Of a stretch of DNA of 64,000 bases, positions 24,001 through 33,000 are shown piece by piece. Made by a program: the position numbers. Numbering within the stretch: position 1 is the first letter of the stretch; each line of letters begins with the position of its first letter. The stretch spans positions 96,001 to 160,000 of the forward strand of contig CAXXVZ010000002.1 in the NCBI GenBank assembly GCA_963678065.2, given 5' to 3'. The stretch comes from Treponemataceae bacterium. GTDB lineage: Bacteria > Spirochaetota > Spirochaetia > Treponematales > Rectinemataceae.

Positions 24001-27000
24001 GGACGGCATCGTCAGAAACGAGACACTTATACGGCTCGGGGTAGACAAATGGATATAGGAGTTCATGTCTCGCTGTGGACTCCCGAATGGGCCAGCCCTT
24101 TCCTGGATGCGCTCGACGCGGCGGCGGATCTCGGATGCACCTGTGTGGAAATCCCGCTCATGGATCCTTTCAATTTCCCTCTGGAAGATATTGAACGCCG
24201 GCTCTCGAAGAATGACCTGAAAGTCTATTGCGGTACGGGGTTGGGCAAAGATACCGACATCGGAAGCGTTTCCGCTACGGTGAGGGAGCGAGGAGTCCGG
24301 CACCTGAGCGAATGTTTGCGAATCTGCGCCGATCTGGGAAGCGACTCCCTCGGAGGCGTCTTGCATTCTCCGTGGGGAATGAGGGGGCCGGTCGATTCCG
24401 GATATGCTCAGCGTGTGGCAGCATCGCTCGGATACGTGGCAGACAAGGCGGCCGAATCCGGAATCGGCATCGCGCTGGAGTGCATAAACCGATACGAGAA
24501 CTCCTTCGTGAACACTGTCGATCAGGGGCTGTCGCTGCTGCGGATCATCGGCCGAGAGAATGTTGGCCTGCATCTGGACACCTATCACATGAACATCGAG
24601 GAGCACGGGATCGTACCCGCAATAGCCGAGGCGGGAAAGACAATCCTGCGGATGCACTTGAGTGAGAACACCAGGGGGTATCCCGGAAGCGGCTCGCTTC
24701 CCTGGAAAGAAATTCTCGCCGCAGCCCAAAAGGCAGGGTACCGGGGACCATGGATCATAGAAAGCTATGTATGCCCGGATTTCCCGGCGTCCGCCGATGT
24801 GTGCGTGTGGAGACCGATCGAGCCCGATATGTCCGCGAGTCTGCGGAAATCACTGGAGTTTCTCGGAGGGCTTATTGCAGCAGACTGAGAATCGCGGAAT
24901 AGATGTAGCAGATCAGGGGACCTTCAGGTCTGTGGCCGGGGGGTATTCCTGATCTGTTTTTTTTCCCGGAAGACCGACAAGATGTTTTCTTCGCTCAGCA
25001 GAATGTGCGAGCGGAACGCTTTCTCGTATTTTTCCTGTTCTCCTGAAGCGAGAGCTTCTATCAGCTCCCTGTGCATCATGGACATGTATGTGTCGGAGAA
25101 CTCGAAATAATGGATCATGCGGAAAAGAACGTGCATCTGTGACGCGATGTCCTTCCATGCCTTCACGAGACGCTGGTTGTCCGATTTCTGAATGATGAAC
25201 AGATGGAATTCAATGTCCAGATCCGATAATTCGGCGTAGTTGTATGATTTCTCCGACGCGACGATCTTGTCGAGAATCGAGTTGAGAGTGACAAAATCAT
25301 TTTCCGTCAAATTCCCGTGGGCAAGGCGGACTCCAAGCACTTCGAGGCTCGCCCGCAGTGTCACCAGCTCGTTGATATCCTTCTCTGTGAAATCGATGAC
25401 CGATATGCCCCGCCGCGCTTTGAACAGTATGAGTCCTTCCTGGGCCAGTTCCCGTATCGCTTCGCGCACAGGTGTCTTGCTGATGGCCATCTGGGTGGAT
25501 ATCGCCTGTTCGACCAGCTTGGTCCCAGGGGGAAGTTGGCCGTTTAAAATCGCTTCCCGAAGGTTGCTGTACGCGATTTTATACAGAGGCGAGTTCAGCG
25601 ATTCCTTTATCTTGAGTTCGTGATGCATCGAGTAACTCCAGATAGACTCTTGGACAGCACTTGAATCAGTGTAAGGCGCGTACTACATAATCCATCGGTT
25701 CAGTGCCATATGTCAATTCCTCATAATCGGGTCATAGCCCATTGTCTAGGGCCTGACCCTCTTCCGGTCCCTCGGGAAGAGGCTCGCCTCTTTCACGTTG
25801 GAGAGACCCAGGATCTTCTGTGTCAGCCGCTCGCAGCCGATCGCGAAGCCGCCGTGGGGAGGGCAGCCGTACTTGAAGATGCAGGTGTAGTCCTCCATGC
25901 CCTTCTCGGAGAGGCCGAACTTGTCGAGGCTCTCGAGGAGCATGGTGTAGTCATTGATGCGCCTGCCGCCCGTCGTGATCTCGAGGCCGCGGAACAGCGC
26001 GTCGAAGCTCATGGTGCGCGAGACCCCGCTCGGGTAGGCGTAGAAGGGACGGGCCTTTCTGGGGAATTCGTTCACGAAGACCAAGTCGGAGCCCTTTTCG
26101 CGCATCGACCACTCGCAGAGCGCCCGCTCGGCCTCGGGATTGATCTCGTAGAGCTTCTTGCCGCACTCGCGCGAGGCGATGTCGCGGGCTTCGTCGTGGG
26201 CGATGATGGGGGATGCCGCCACCGCCTCTGCGCTCGGGACACTCGCCTTCCACATGTCGAGTTCCACTGCGTTCTTCTGGGCCACGCGCGCGAAAATGTG
26301 GGTGAGCAGGTTCTTCTCGAGCTCGATGAGGTCGAGCTCCGAGTCGATGAAGGCCATCTCGAGGTCGAGGGAAACGTACTCGTTGAGGTGACGCGGCGTG
26401 TCGTGCTTCTCGGCGCGGTAGGCCGGCGCGACTTCGTAGACACGTTCCATGCCCGACGAGACCATGGTCTGCTTGTAGAACTGGGGCGACTGCGCCAGGT
26501 AGACTTTCGTGTCGAAATAGTCGACCTCGAAGAGGCCCGTGCCGCCCTCGGTCCCGGTCCCGATCAGCTTGGAGGTTTTGACCTCGGTGAAGTCCTGCGA
26601 GGCGAGGTATTCCGAAAAGGCGCGCACGATCGTCGACTGGACGGCGAAGATGGCGCGCAGTTTGGGGTTGCGCAGGGCCAGCGGCCGGTTGTCCAGAATG
26701 ATGTCGAGGCCGACTTTTTCCGGGTCGCCGTTCACGGGGTAGGGAAGGTCGGGCGCGGCCTTTGCGATGACATCGACGGCGCTCGCGCGCAATTCGACAC
26801 CGCCCGATGCCTTGGGATTCTCCGCGACCTGGCCCCGGACCGCGATGACGGACTCGAGAGTCAGGTCTACTTTGCCATCGACCACCACCTGGACTATCCC
26901 GGAGCGGTCGCGCAGCATGACGAAACTGACTGCCCCGAGTTCGCGGATGCGGTGCACCCAGCCTTTGAGTTCGATTTCGCCGCCGATATGAGACTTGAGA

Positions 27001-30000: not shown

Positions 30001-33000
30001 CACTTCCGGCCCGAAACCAGCCTCGCGGGACATTTCGACGAGACTGTCCGGGTTTTCTGCGCCCGGGGCCCGCACGCCGTAGCGGATACCGTTGTAGCGG
30101 GCGAGATTCGCGCTCGCCTCGGCAGTGGCGATCGTGTAGTAGGCGGGGACGACGTACTCGAGGGTCGGAAGGGTCACGTCGACGAGTTCGTAGCCGAGTG
30201 CAGCGAGGCGCCTCCTGACCGTCGCGTAGCCGCGCCCGACGGCCGGGTCGAGCTCGCCGGGGGCGACTGCGAGGACACCAACCCTGGGTTTGCGACTGAC
30301 GCCTTCCCGCGAGGCGACGGGCGCGGCGGCCGTGCCGGCATCGACAGACATGCCGATGTCGCCGGCGCCTCTGGCGGGCGGATTCCTCGAGGTCTGGTCC
30401 ATGGGATCTTCGCCGCGCATCACCTCGAAGACAGCCTTGACCCGCGCGGTGCTGTCGCCGACGACACCGATCGTCTCAAGACTCGAGGCGTAGGCGACGA
30501 GGCCGAAGCGCGAAACCGCGCCGTAGGTGGGCTTGAGTCCGACGACGCCGCAGAAGGATGCCGGCTGGCGGACCGAGCCGCCGGTATCCGAACCGAGGGC
30601 GAAGGGCACGAGCCCTGCGGCTACGGCGGCGGCCGAGCCGCCCGAAGAGCCGCCGGGCACCCTTCCCGCGGCCCAGGGATTGTCGGTGAGCTGGTAGGCG
30701 GAGTTGTCTGTCGAGGAGCCCATGCCGAACTCGTCGAGGTTTGTCTTTCCGGTCACGAAGGCTCCGGCCGCCTCGATTCTGCCGACCGCGGTCGCGGTGT
30801 AGGGCGAGACGAAGCCCTCGAGAATCTTCGATCCGCAGGTGAGACCGAGGCCCTTCACGGCGATGTTATCCTTCACGGCGAAGGGAAGACCCGCGAGAAC
30901 TCCGCCGCCGCGCGCTTCCCTGACCGCCGCCTCTCCCGGATTGGATGCGCGGGCGGGGGCAAACTCGAGGAAGGACCTGATCCGCTCCTCCCATCCGGCG
31001 AAATACTCGCCAAAACCTCGTGGAAAACCGCTAAAATCCCGAGCATCTGTCGGTCCGGGTCCGGAACCGCGCTCTATATCGGGCTTTGTGCTCATGACCA
31101 TGCTCCTTTTTTGGACCTGCCGGCGACGGGAAATGCCTTCCGCGCCCCGGCCGGCTTCAACGGGATCGGCCCAGGGATTTCCCCGGGCATCCCTTCCCCG
31201 ACCTGCAATCCGCAGATGGGGCTACGCTGACTGGGTGGGATTACAGGACGTTGGGAATGGCGATGAAGCGCTCTTCGCGCTCCGGGGCCATTCCCAGAAG
31301 ATTATTGGCGAGATTGGAGGGATTATTGGTGTCGGGCCTGACCCGGTTTTCGGAGGCGAGGGCGTGGACGGTGGGTTCGAGATGGTCTACATCGAGGAGA
31401 CTCATGCGGGAGAAGTTTTCCAGCATGGCCTCGAATGAGGGGGCGGCCGCAGCGAGCTCCGATTCGGTGACCGGAAGCCGGGCGAGACGCGCGGTGATGA
31501 CGAGGTCTTCTTGCAGCATGGAAGAGATTTGCATATTCCTTATACAAGTGTCAAGAATATTTATGCGAGGCGGACCGGAAAGCGTCGCCTTCCACCTCTC
31601 CGGACCTCATCCCAGCTCAAAGCTCGTGACGCCGAAAATCCGCTCCGCCCGCAGATCGGGCACGGAGCCTGTGTACATTCTCGCAGTCTCGAAGACCTTC
31701 TCGAGCCCGAGATCGCGCGCAATCGCGAGGGCGGCCACATTCGTTTCGGGAACATCCAGAAACCAGAGCGGGTCCCTGATCTCCCCGAGAAGCGAGGTCA
31801 GGATGGCGAGAGCGCATTCCCGGTCATCCGCGAAGAGCGGGCCGACCTTCCAGCCTTCCCTGCAGGGCCTGATCGCTCCGAAGCCCCTGATGGCCGACGA
31901 CTCCTTGCCTGAGGCGTGATCTCTCCCTGAAGGGAGACTCCCCCCTGCCCCGGAAAACCTGTCCGCAGCGGGTGCGGCGACAAGCGCCCGGGCTATCGTC
32001 CCCGGGCGCGAAATCCAGTCGGCGATAAAGTTTTTCCGCGGCGCGGGAAAGCAGAGCCTGTCATAGGCAGCCAGGTCTTCGATGTCGACATCGGCACAAT
32101 TCCTGACTGCACAACCGGCCGGCTGCATAGCAGCATTGCCGGCACCCGCTCCGGCTGTCGGCCACGGTTTCTGGTACGAGGCCGCCTTTCGCGCCGCAGC
32201 CCCGTCGCCACGGAACCGGATATTCCTGCAAGCGAGGCGGAATCCGGACCTGCCGTAGTTTTCCTGCTGTTCGACGACTCCGTCCAGCCCGATATTCCGA
32301 TCCCGGAGGTGCTCCATTGCACGGCGCCACAGCCTGATCCCGTATCCCTTTCCCCGGAATTCCGGCCTCACGATGTAGAATCCGACAAAGCCGAAATCAC
32401 CGCCATAGGCGACGGCCGAAATACAGCCCACGGGCTCTTTGCCAAGGAATCCCATGAAAAATCCATCAGGATCACAGCGCAAAAAACATTCCGTATCGTG
32501 CAGCCCCGGATTCCAGCCTTCCTGCGCCGCCCATCCGACAGCCAGATCGAGTTCTTCCGCGCTCATTGTCCGGATCGCAAATTCCGCAACCTTGTCATCG
32601 ACCATCGTCGACCTCCGACACCCATCCCTCGTCTCGCCCCTGATGGGGCCTTCAGCCCCCCAAATCCTCTGGCATATGCCTCATTTCGCCGTTCACGCCG
32701 AGGCGGGCAATATCGGAGGCGCGGTCCGGATAGAGGCGGACCAGCTCCGACGCGATCCCTGCCTCGAAACAGGAGGCCGTGAAGCCGGGAGCCATCGTGC
32801 AGCCGAAGAGCGAGTAGCGCCCGCCGGGGAGCATGTATCCGGCCTGCCAGACGCGGGCGGGCACCACGAACTGGACATTCTGCCCGGCGAGCGGGTCGCA
32901 TCCCATGAGGATTTCGCCGCTCGTGCCGTCGGGGTACAGAAGGACGAGTACGAAGGGATCGCCGCCGTAGACGTGCCAGACCTCGTCGAATGACAGACGG

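What a model noticed while it worked through the whole genome (the two positions that open the first line are those of the whole stretch)
25746..31519. GatB fused to a GatD-like pseudo-asparaginase that has lost its nucleophile: candidate asparagine sensor on the tRNA-dep [...]
The only GatB of this genome (g00162, 863 aa, in a gatC-gatA-gatB-aspS(ND) operon) carries a whole C-terminal asparaginase domain, closest to archaeal GatD, whose first catalytic threonine is an alanine while the second threonine-aspartate motif is invariant. I read it as a dead enzyme kept to bind asparagine and switch the amidotransferase off, in spirochaetes that own AsnRS and GlnRS and so use GatCAB only to make asparagine. 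A bacterial GatB-GatD chimera, and feedback control of indirect Asn synthesis by a pseudo-enzyme, would be new.
Evidence so far: Pfam GatB_N+GatB_Yqey+Asparaginase on one ORF. Best PDB match of residues 500-863 is GatD 1zq1, E 2e-19. The best 120 database hits of the C-terminal part carry asparaginase rows, nearly all with GatB rows, mostly about 800 aa. In their alignment GG(T)I reads GGA in 116 of 120 (Ser 3, Thr 1), GTDTL is 120 of 120, ELYDTGTA and CTSQQEG are almost invariant. Found in 7 of 60 Spirochaetia genomes, next to an aspS-like gene in 7 of 7 loci. GatA keeps its amidase motifs; AsnRS g01524, GlnRS g01308 and a second AspRS are present; no AsnA or Asn_synthase row.
(Added by a program. 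Inside this text positions count along the whole contig: contig position 96,001 is position 1 of the stretch shown here. "Call 12" and the like, gene names such as g00115 and contig names such as C1 are that model's own, and its searches are not shown. The text may have been shortened before it was handed on; [...] marks where a part breaks off. The agent that wrote the report below was given it as the finding of a first reader that could run no searches.)

Follow-up and report, generated by a model that had tools for sequence, protein, structure and literature searches.

The report
GatB carrying a twice-dead asparaginase tail
In this spirochaete the enzyme subunit GatB, which likely makes asparagine on tRNA, carries a conserved asparaginase-shaped tail that lacks two catalytic residues but keeps the amino-acid pocket; the tail likely senses asparagine and would turn the pathway down, and many treponemes keep the same tail on a GatB that has lost its own catalytic residues.

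Summary
An 863-aa GatB in a gatC-gatA-gatB-aspS(ND) operon ends in a 363-aa asparaginase-fold tail, found in 66 of 401 Spirochaetia genomes. Three corrections. (1) The tail is deader than stated: besides Thr to Ala513, the catalytic Lys aligns to Phe684 (Lys in 0 of 160 tails), while the residues that grip an amino acid's backbone stay nearly invariant. (2) It is not shown to be GatD: the nearest unfused relatives are free-standing type-I-like asparaginases, though a GatD origin is not rejected (AU p = 0.14). (3) A second class in Treponematales keeps the tail on a GatB that has lost its metal ligands and its gatC/gatA/aspS neighbours, yet is under purifying selection. The genome has AsnRS and GlnRS and no AsnA/AsnB match, so GatCAB likely serves only asparagine synthesis. 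Best reading: a ligand-binding pseudo-enzyme, likely for asparagine, that throttles the route (0.45). Against: nothing is shown to bind, five near-complete relatives lack the tail, and the dead-GatB class needs another output. No paper found in 8 searches. The scan noted both forms before on other DNA.

The parts
31241..31534 (-). gatC, 97 aa
   Evidence: Pfam GatC and TIGR00135 over cut-off; ribosome-binding-like AAGGA upstream of the ATG
29596..31101 (-). gatA, 501 aa, amidase subunit with its Lys/Ser/Ser motifs
   Evidence: Pfam Amidase E 5e-126; TIGR00132 475.5 bits, just under the 481.1 cut-off; motifs at residues 75, 150, 170
27001..29592 (-). gatB fused in frame to an asparaginase-fold tail, 863 aa
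   Evidence: junction bridged in 3 of 4 runs laid
28750..29592 (-). GatB catalytic (cradle) domain, residues 1-281, with His11, Glu123, Glu149, Asp191, Glu208 intact
28096..28509 (-). GatB helical/YqeY region, residues 362-499; in known GatB it grips the tRNA D-loop; the tail is attached to its end
   Evidence: role from PMC2330236 section 6
27004..28092 (-). asparaginase-fold tail, residues 501-863
   Evidence: model pLDDT 87, pTM 0.90; Z 26.7, rmsd 3.3, 297 aligned to a type I asparaginase T13A mutant
28054..28056 (-). Ala513 (GCG) at the place of the nucleophilic Thr
   Evidence: profile alignment to 4q0m, 9ufq and 1zq1 puts GGA on GGT
27889..27894 (-). Ser567-Glu568, kept; predicted backbone-binding residues of the pocket
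   Evidence: 54 of 55 non-redundant tails each; the binding role is recalled from asparaginase structures
27790..27795 (-). Thr600-Asp601 of the HGTDT motif, kept
   Evidence: Asp 55 of 55, Thr 47 of 55 non-redundant tails
27541..27543 (-). Phe684 (TTC) at the place of the catalytic Lys
   Evidence: ungapped profile-profile match to Lys170 of free-standing relatives
27160..27162 (-). Tyr811, likely the Tyr that a partner subunit lends to close the pocket in type I enzymes
   Evidence: aligns with the nearly invariant Tyr301 of free relatives; Tyr 48, Phe 6 of 55; role from PMC8256714 section 3.5
25746..27020 (-). aspS, archaeal-type non-discriminating aspartyl-tRNA synthetase, 424 aa; its start overlaps the end of gatB by 20 nt
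   Evidence: TIGR00458 and PRK05159 over cut-off

Best explanation
The tail is an asparaginase-fold domain that has lost both its nucleophilic threonine and its catalytic lysine but kept its amino-acid pocket, and it likely works as an amino-acid sensor, most likely for asparagine, that would turn down tRNA-dependent asparagine synthesis by GatCAB. Steps. Shown: the fold, the two lost residues (by alignment), the kept pocket, an intact GatB active site and GatA motifs, the ND-AspRS next door, AsnRS and GlnRS in the genome, no asparagine synthetase match. From known enzymology: such substitutions stop turnover and leave asparagine binding. Inferred: GatCAB here serves only to make asparagine; two tails pair as in type I asparaginases so that the partner's Tyr811 loop closes the pocket; binding shifts the tail, which hangs on the YqeY end that grips the tRNA, and so lowers tRNA engagement when free asparagine and AsnRS make the route redundant. 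My odds per step: dead as an amide hydrolase 0.93; binds an L-amino acid 0.7; asparagine if it binds 0.6; inhibition as the output 0.7. The broad claim (ligand-binding regulator) is about 0.55, the full chain about 0.3.
For: Position 513 is Ala 141, Ser 10, Thr 7, Val 1, Gly 1 of 160 tails, against Thr in 103 of 107 free-standing relatives (3 gaps, 1 His). Position 684 is Phe 147, Tyr 7, Met 4, Leu 2 of 160, never Lys, against Lys in 79 of 107 free relatives; all 7 tails with Thr513 still lack the Lys. Lys173Met lowers kcat of a glutaminase-asparaginase from 31 to 0.00028 per second, and E. coli T12V is inactive yet binds asparagine like wild type (PMC7567106 passages); human T19A shows no activity (PMC5443537 passages); T13A, T19A and K188M mutants are in the PDB with asparagine bound. 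Six of 7 pocket positions lie among the 42 most conserved of 318 columns in 55 non-redundant tails, median identity 44%. AsnRS in 56 of 59 and GlnRS in 52 of 59 carriers outside Treponematales; 10 of 14 operon-class genomes have neither AsnA nor a strong AsnB match. tRNA-Asn has U1-A72. The same enzyme set marks asparagine-only use of GatCAB in Deinococcus and Thermus (PMC4206432 passages).
Against: No binding, activity or regulation was measured. Five genomes of 98-99% completeness have a tail-less GatB of the same type, AsnRS, no AsnA or AsnB match and no tail elsewhere (G270, G271, G290, G298, G190), so the tail is dispensable in the same metabolic setting. The dead-GatB class keeps the tail equally well with nothing to inhibit in cis, and 23 of 32 of those genomes have AsnA. 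Four of 14 operon-class genomes have an AsnB-like gene and one of them AsnA. AsnRS is near universal in these spirochaetes (20 of 20 controls), so its co-occurrence says little, and kin are not independent. Glu568 and the Phe/Ala swaps do not single out asparagine over glutamine; 4 of 55 tails have Thr600 to Leu. The pocket positions were partly chosen after seeing the data and include glycines with structural roles, so the p of 2e-5 overstates. The Phe684 assignment rests on alignments; one profile alignment put Lys683 there instead, and no residue-level superposition was available.
Confidence: 0.45

Rival explanations
1. The unit under selection is 'tRNA-binding GatB body plus tail', a regulator of tRNA(Asn) or tRNA(Gln) handling whose job is separable from amidation. 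It would bind or release tRNA according to amino-acid level. In Treponematales the two jobs were split between a tail-less active GatB and a tail-bearing dead GatB that acts in trans.
For: 79 of 161 full-length rows have fixed swaps at the metal site: His11Arg 71 of 72 covered, Glu149Arg 78, Asp191Asn 78, Glu208Lys 79. Loss of any one of the three matching GatE ligands kills activity (PMC2330236 section 6; mapping by motif). They form one clade (100), keep the GatB fold (model pLDDT 86.5, best solved match 3ip4_B E 4e-41) and the YqeY region, and show dN/dS 0.01-0.22 in all three parts where dS is measurable. 23 of 32 such loci and 11 of 14 operon loci share the same upstream gene. 25 of 32 genomes have a second, ordinary GatB; tail-less operon GatBs are sister to the window's GatB (99).
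Against: No tRNA binding was tested and no output is known. The class is patchy in Treponemataceae (5 of 38), has long branches and is broken in at least one genome (L029/L071). The tree is the quick one, with long branches and no root. Five genomes have the tail-less operon and no dead copy.
Confidence: 0.2
2. The tail is only a scaffold. It pairs two GatCAB complexes to match the dimeric ND-AspRS and steadies the transamidosome; the pocket residues are kept for the fold.
For: Type I asparaginases work as intimate dimers and GatD is a homodimer that holds two GatE. All 27 loci with an active-type GatB among 29 examined have aspS directly downstream, as do 14 of 14 operon loci. The C-terminal loop 798-811 is highly conserved.
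Against: The dead-GatB class has lost the RKNYFYPD and YRYFPEPD motifs and its gatA, gatC and aspS neighbours, yet keeps the tail. Glu568 is 54 of 55 in tails but 77 of 107 in free relatives. Tail-less operons exist.
Confidence: 0.2
3. The tail senses another amino acid, such as glutamine (the amide donor) or aspartate, and may activate the enzyme instead of inhibiting it.
For: Only backbone-binding residues are invariant; the side-chain end of the pocket has changed (Ala513, Phe684, Leu600 in 4 of 55). GatD-type pockets take both Gln and Asn.
Against: Loss of the Lys disfavours acidic side chains (inference). The operon's only product here is likely asparagine. Equivalent single mutants hold asparagine in crystals.
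Confidence: 0.1
4. The tail is still an enzyme: a slow amide hydrolase that feeds ammonia to GatB, or a hydrolase of something else such as aminoacyl-tRNA.
For: Thr600, Asp601 and Tyr811 are mostly kept. A direct-displacement mechanism without the first Thr as nucleophile has been argued for a mammalian type I enzyme (PMC8256714 section 3.5). Seven of 160 tails have Thr513.
Against: The Lys that activates water is replaced in 160 of 160; GatA keeps its motifs; the tail sits at the YqeY end, away from the GatA-GatB tunnel (inference; pTM 0.60 of the full-length homolog model gives no fixed packing).
Confidence: 0.05

Closest known systems
Bacterial GatCAB with an archaeal-type ND-AspRS used for asparagine synthesis (Thermus thermophilus, Deinococcus radiodurans; PDB 3kfu, 3ip4)
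   Same: GatB catalytic and YqeY domains, GatA, GatC, ND-AspRS; AsnRS and GlnRS present, no asparagine synthetase match
   Different: GatB carries a 363-aa asparaginase-fold tail; no solved GatB among the hits has one (targets 285-482 aa)
Type I L-asparaginases and their catalytically dead Thr-to-Ala/Val and Lys-to-Met mutants (PDB 4q0m, 7c8x, 5dnc, 5dne)
   Same: Fold (Z 26.7, rmsd 3.3, 297 aligned), HGTDT motif, Ser-Glu pocket, C-terminal Tyr loop
   Different: Both Thr and Lys are replaced naturally and stably across a class; the domain is fused to a tRNA enzyme
Archaeal GatDE (PDB 1zq1, 2d6f)
   Same: A GatB-family subunit joined with an asparaginase-fold module; top single-sequence and Foldseek hit
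   Different: GatD is the active ammonia source, has an N-terminal region the tail lacks, and pairs with GatE; here GatA is present, the tail is dead, and free-standing asparaginases are closer in sequence
T-box control of GatCAB/AspRS in Clostridium acetobutylicum (Saad et al. 2012; only the title seen, in the reference list of PMC4206432)
   Same: Redundant direct and indirect routes to Asn-tRNA under control
   Different: That control is a riboswitch on transcription; no Rfam match lies at window 24000-34500; the tail would act on the protein
GCN2 HisRS-like domain (recalled; a review only in the listing)
   Same: Analogy for the dead-GatB class: a translation enzyme body kept without catalysis, as a possible tRNA sensor
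   Different: No homology; no effector domain is known here

Membership tests
GatB of bacterial GatCAB | Score over the curated GatB cut-off | tested here: met
   TIGR00133 488.5 > 314.8
GatB of bacterial GatCAB | His/Glu/Glu metal ligands of the catalytic pocket | tested here: met
   His11, Glu123, Glu149 present; matched by motif to GatE
GatB of bacterial GatCAB | YqeY-like C-terminal region | tested here: met
   PF02637 362-499
GatB of bacterial GatCAB | GatA with amidase motifs and GatC encoded | tested here: met
GatB of bacterial GatCAB | tRNA-Asn with U1-A72 in the genome | tested here: met
   requirement from PMC4206432
GatB of bacterial GatCAB | Transamidation of Asp-tRNA(Asn) | not testable with these tools
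   needs an assay
GatD (for the tail) | Score over the curated GatD cut-off | tested here: not met
   80.8 < 324 and 74.8 < 310; true GatD rows score 446-640
GatD (for the tail) | N-terminal region ahead of the asparaginase core | tested here: not met
   the tail profile matches 1zq1 from residue 94 on
GatD (for the tail) | Thr nucleophile plus Thr-Lys-Asp triad | tested here: not met
   Ala513, Phe684; definition
GatD (for the tail) | Groups with GatD in a tree | tested here: inconclusive
   best tree separates them; holding them together is not rejected, p-AU 0.137
GatD (for the tail) | A GatE partner in the genome | tested here: not met
   one GatB/GatE-family match in the genome, this gene
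Active type I L-asparaginase | Two-domain asparaginase fold | tested here: met
Active type I L-asparaginase | First catalytic Thr | tested here: not met
   Ala513
Active type I L-asparaginase | Catalytic Lys | tested here: not met
   Phe684 by two alignment methods; one profile alignment differs by one place; no residue-level superposition
Active type I L-asparaginase | Second Thr and Asp | tested here: met
   Thr600, Asp601
Active type I L-asparaginase | Tyr lent by the partner subunit in an intimate dimer | tested here: inconclusive
   Tyr811 is kept by alignment; the dimer itself was not modelled
Pseudo-enzyme ligand sensor | Catalytic residues lost, binding residues kept | tested here: met
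Pseudo-enzyme ligand sensor | Ligand binding changes the activity of the attached enzyme | not testable with these tools
   needs binding and activity assays

The most novel reading that the evidence does not exclude
Spirochaetes control tRNA-dependent asparagine synthesis with a built-in two-input sensor: a dead asparaginase reads free asparagine and the GatB body reads tRNA(Asn). In Treponematales this split into an active tail-less GatCAB and a doubly dead GatB-asparaginase, with arginines and lysine in place of the metal site, that holds or releases tRNA in trans: a bacterial counterpart in logic to the pseudo-synthetase sensor of GCN2.
Probability: 0.15. Interest if true: 0.85.

Novelty: new variant of a known kind. 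Interest (0 to 1): 0.6.

Why it matters
Bacteria that own both routes to Asn-tRNA must choose between them, and the only control I came across is a riboswitch. An amino-acid sensor on GatCAB itself would be the first protein-level control of this enzyme that my searches could find, and a natural asparaginase pseudo-enzyme would be a new use of a much studied fold. The dead-GatB class points to a job of GatB apart from amidation. Both forms are testable with purified proteins, and Breznakiella homolactica (complete genome) holds the dead form and the tail-less operon together.

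Tried and rejected
GatD origin: the top PDB hit for the single sequence, but a profile ranks Thermococcales type I enzymes first (132 against 121 bits), and among 50% representatives free-standing proteins score up to 169 bits against 110-124 for GatD; left as unsupported, not excluded. 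Lys683 as the catalytic Lys: my first reading, dropped; it matches the variable Arg/Lys place before the catalytic Lys. Free-standing form of the tail: among 75 shorter hits the short members look like fragments, mostly on short contigs or named GatB; not settled for each. Assembly artefact: rejected. Riboswitch or leader RNA: no Rfam match; promoter and terminator scans at chance level. Hidden asparagine synthetase in the genome: none found. Expression: one RNA run gave only short contigs over 20 of 30 bins, none listed across most of the tail; no conclusion. The count at position 513 was spoilt by an alignment artefact in 14 rows and is not used; one search realigned the tails and left out L043 (masked bases). 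G234 (spirochaete-type operon in an Alphaproteobacteria bin) was left out of the 14-genome counts. A single-protein phylum search found the family only in G100 and G000 of 221 genomes, against 66 of 401 in the class by profile. Papers: searches gave no study of the fusion; Schalk 2016 and a 2024 review of amide aminoacyl-tRNA synthesis (recalled) were not held.

Full report
Observation. The window holds, on the minus strand, gatC (31241-31534), gatA (29596-31101), an 863-aa ORF (27001-29592) and aspS (25746-27020). The long ORF has GatB_N, GatB_Yqey, Asparaginase and Asparaginase_C in one frame and passes the GatB cut-off; aspS passes the non-discriminating cut-off. It is the only GatB/GatE-family match in the genome. 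Contigs from 3 of 4 runs laid, of three studies, bridge the junction, and 407 proteins of 474-1511 aa match the tail. The fusion is real.

The tail's fold. A model from 119 sequences has pLDDT 87 and pTM 0.90. Foldseek ranks GatD 1zq1 first and a T13A asparaginase with asparagine second; the structural aligner ties many class 1 asparaginases at Z 25-27 (best 26.7, rmsd 3.3, 297 aligned; GatD 2d6f 25.0). The fold is the common one and does not single out GatD.

Catalytic residues. A review section names five: two Thr, Tyr, Asp, Lys (PMC8256714 section 3.5 read whole). The first Thr is Ala513: profile alignments put GGA on GGT of 4q0m, 9ufq and 1zq1. It is Ala 116, Ser 3, Thr 1 in the best 120 hits and Ala 141, Ser 10, Thr 7, Val 1, Gly 1 in a wider set of 160 rows (proteins and loci, which may overlap); 103 of 107 free-standing relatives have Thr. 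I first took Lys683 for it, and one profile alignment does so. But the closest free relatives align without a gap over about 30 residues and put their nearly invariant Lys on Phe684; position 683 matches the variable Arg/Lys before it. Position 684 is Phe, Tyr, Met or Leu in 160 of 160, including the 7 rows with Thr513. Published single changes at these places are severe: Lys173Met takes kcat from 31 to 0.00028 per second, and E. coli T12V is inactive but binds asparagine like wild type (PMC7567106, passages); human T19A shows no activity (PMC5443537, passages). A direct-displacement mechanism is argued for a mammalian enzyme (PMC8948990 passages; the primary paper was not held), but it would need the Lys (inference). 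The tail is very likely dead.

What is kept. In 55 tails non-redundant at 70% (median identity 44%), Gly511, Gly512, Ser567, Glu568, Gly599 and Asp601 are among the 42 most conserved of 318 columns; Tyr811 is Tyr 48, Phe 6, Ser 1; Thr600 is Thr 47, Leu 4. That Ser567, Glu568 and Asp601 hold the amino and carboxyl groups of the ligand is recalled from asparaginase structures. In type I enzymes a Tyr loop from the partner subunit closes the site and becomes ordered on binding; Tyr811 aligns with the conserved Tyr of the free relatives. This is the pattern of a binding site without catalysis, but it is also partly what the fold needs, and I chose the positions partly after seeing the data.

Origin. 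A profile search of 1.84 billion representatives ranks free-standing proteins of about 320-390 aa next after the family (up to 169 bits); they carry the LSE, ELYxxGT and TSQxxG motifs and the catalytic Thr. Of 27 non-family hits scanned, 4 pass the GatD cut-offs, and these score 110-124 bits against the tail profile. In a quick tree of 51 rows the tails form one clade (100) away from GatD; forcing them together is not rejected (p-AU 0.137). The organisms of the free relatives are unnamed. 'GatB-GatD chimera' is therefore not shown; a captured type-I-like asparaginase is more likely.

Spread and setting. The tail is in 66 of 401 Spirochaetia genomes of at least 80% completeness, 37 of 155 genera. 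Of 29 loci examined, 27 have an active-type GatB with aspS directly downstream; the other 2 are the dead class. The window's genome has AsnRS, GlnRS and a bacterial AspRS, no AsnA or AsnB match, and a tRNA-Asn with U1-A72. Among 59 carriers outside Treponematales, 56 have AsnRS and 52 GlnRS; most are draft genomes. Among 14 operon-class genomes, 12 have GlnRS, 12 AsnRS, 1 AsnA and 4 an AsnB-like gene; 10 have neither. This is the set known from Deinococcus and Thermus, where GatCAB makes asparagine (PMC4206432, passages).

A second class. Of 46 family loci from named genomes (the scan covered 11 of 64 parts), 14 lie in the four-gene operon and 32, from Treponema, Breznakiella, Gracilinema and relatives, have no gatC, gatA or aspS in the flank held, some flanks being short. 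Thirty are intact ORFs of about 800 aa. Their GatB half has fixed changes: His11Arg 71 of 72, His121Arg 79 of 79, Glu149Arg 78, Asp191Asn 78, Glu208Lys 79, Lys210Arg 78 of 79, with Glu123 and Glu124 kept. Two of the three metal ligands whose loss kills GatE are gone (PMC2330236 section 6 read whole; mapped by motif). The RKNYFYPD and YRYFPEPD motifs are lost and the YqeY region is kept. They are one clade, fold like GatB, and have dN/dS 0.01-0.22 in the pairs where dS is not saturated (7 pairs tried). They sit beside the same glycoside hydrolase gene as the operon (23 of 32 and 11 of 14 loci), so they are the operon's remnant. 25 of 32 genomes have another, ordinary GatB; of 15 fetched, 8 are tail-less GatBs 54-69% identical to the window's, 6 of them beside aspS, and 7 of those 8 lie in a clade sister to it. 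23 of 32 have AsnA and 14 GlnRS.

Results against a needed switch. G270, G271, G290 and G298 (98-99% complete) have gatC-gatA-gatB-aspS with a tail-less GatB, and G190 has the same type of GatB with aspS elsewhere; all have AsnRS, none has AsnA, AsnB or a tail. In the window's own family GatB was found in only 3 of 24 other genomes, all three tail-less. Here the operon is not at the ancestral locus and has higher GC3 (0.74-0.87) than two left neighbours (0.54, 0.66), so it has moved or been regained.

Mechanism. The tail hangs on the YqeY end, which in known GatB grips the tRNA D-loop. The reading I commit to: paired tails bind a neutral amide amino acid, likely asparagine, the partner's Tyr loop closes, and the shift lowers tRNA engagement, saving ATP and glutamine when AsnRS can use free asparagine. 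Shown are the anatomy, the lost and kept residues and the gene set; pairing, binding, ligand and direction are inferred. Dispensability fits an accessory regulator as well as a scaffold. The dead class shows that the tail has value without amidation in cis, which speaks against a pure scaffold for GatCAB-AspRS and for a tRNA-level job that I cannot name.

Known and new. Databases label these proteins GatB or 'asparaginase domain-containing protein'. Eight full-text searches (listings and abstract openings seen) gave no study of the fusion, of a dead GatB paralog, or of allosteric control of GatCAB. The library lacks most subscription papers; a 2024 review of amide aminoacyl-tRNA synthesis (recalled) was not held and may mention it, and the supplementary genome tables of PMC4206432 and the residue table of PMC8256714 were not read. 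Earlier notes of this scan describe the fusion in seven other genomes and the dead form in one; I reached both readings before seeing them, and they are not independent evidence.

Verdict. A real, widespread, apparently unstudied variant of GatCAB with a strong case for a pseudo-enzyme and a moderate case for asparagine sensing. Novelty: new variant of a known kind. Interest 0.6.

Noticed in passing
L025 8338-11627; L026 7983-11256; L027 8234-11523; L028 3651-6957: Adjacent gatE and gatD genes in four Spirochaetota genomes outside the window's class; those of L025 and L028 pass the curated GatE and GatD cut-offs. Three of the four have a further asparaginase-like gene close by on the other strand. 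Earlier scan notes report bacterial GatDE in other phyla.
   Followed up: partly
P0208, P0209, P0212, P0214, P0215, P0216: A deep-branching group of tails with the second Thr changed to Leu and the Lys place to Met; the four with a full N-terminal half (P0209, P0214-P0216) keep an active-type GatB. The side-chain pocket may fit another ligand. Organisms unnamed.
   Followed up: partly
L029 7091-9461 (same contig as L071): The dead-GatB form broken into three frames in one Treponemataceae genome: decay or assembly error.
   Followed up: no
L007 4969-5505 (-), own genome: A 178-aa protein with only the asparaginase N-terminal domain and intact GGT and HGTDT motifs; similar short hits occur in G270, G271, G290.
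   Followed up: partly
L048, L049, L051, L054; P0110, P0194, P0213: Seven tails with Thr at 513 but still no Lys at 684; scattered in the trees, likely reversions.
   Followed up: partly
L078: A spirochaete-type, frameshifted gatC-gatA-gatB-tail-aspS operon in a genome bin titled Alphaproteobacteria that has its own ordinary GatB; likely misbinned.
   Followed up: no
L127 1926-5098 (G230): An operon-class genome with a second, plain gatA-gatB pair only 38% identical to the window's GatB.
   Followed up: partly
window 25746-31534; G000 C5 733070-734500: The operon has higher GC3 than two left neighbours, and the glycoside hydrolase gene that flanks it in other spirochaetes lies elsewhere here with no gat genes.
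   Followed up: partly
P0088, P0161, P0185: Database proteins joining the tail to other Pfam rows (PF08479/PF07244; PF22422; PF01336); likely assembly or gene-calling artefacts.
   Followed up: no
window 31607-32605 (-) and 34146-35654 (+): A two-domain GNAT acetyltransferase just upstream of gatC on the same strand, and an aspartokinase with two ACT domains nearby; neither recurs among the common neighbours of the family loci.
   Followed up: no
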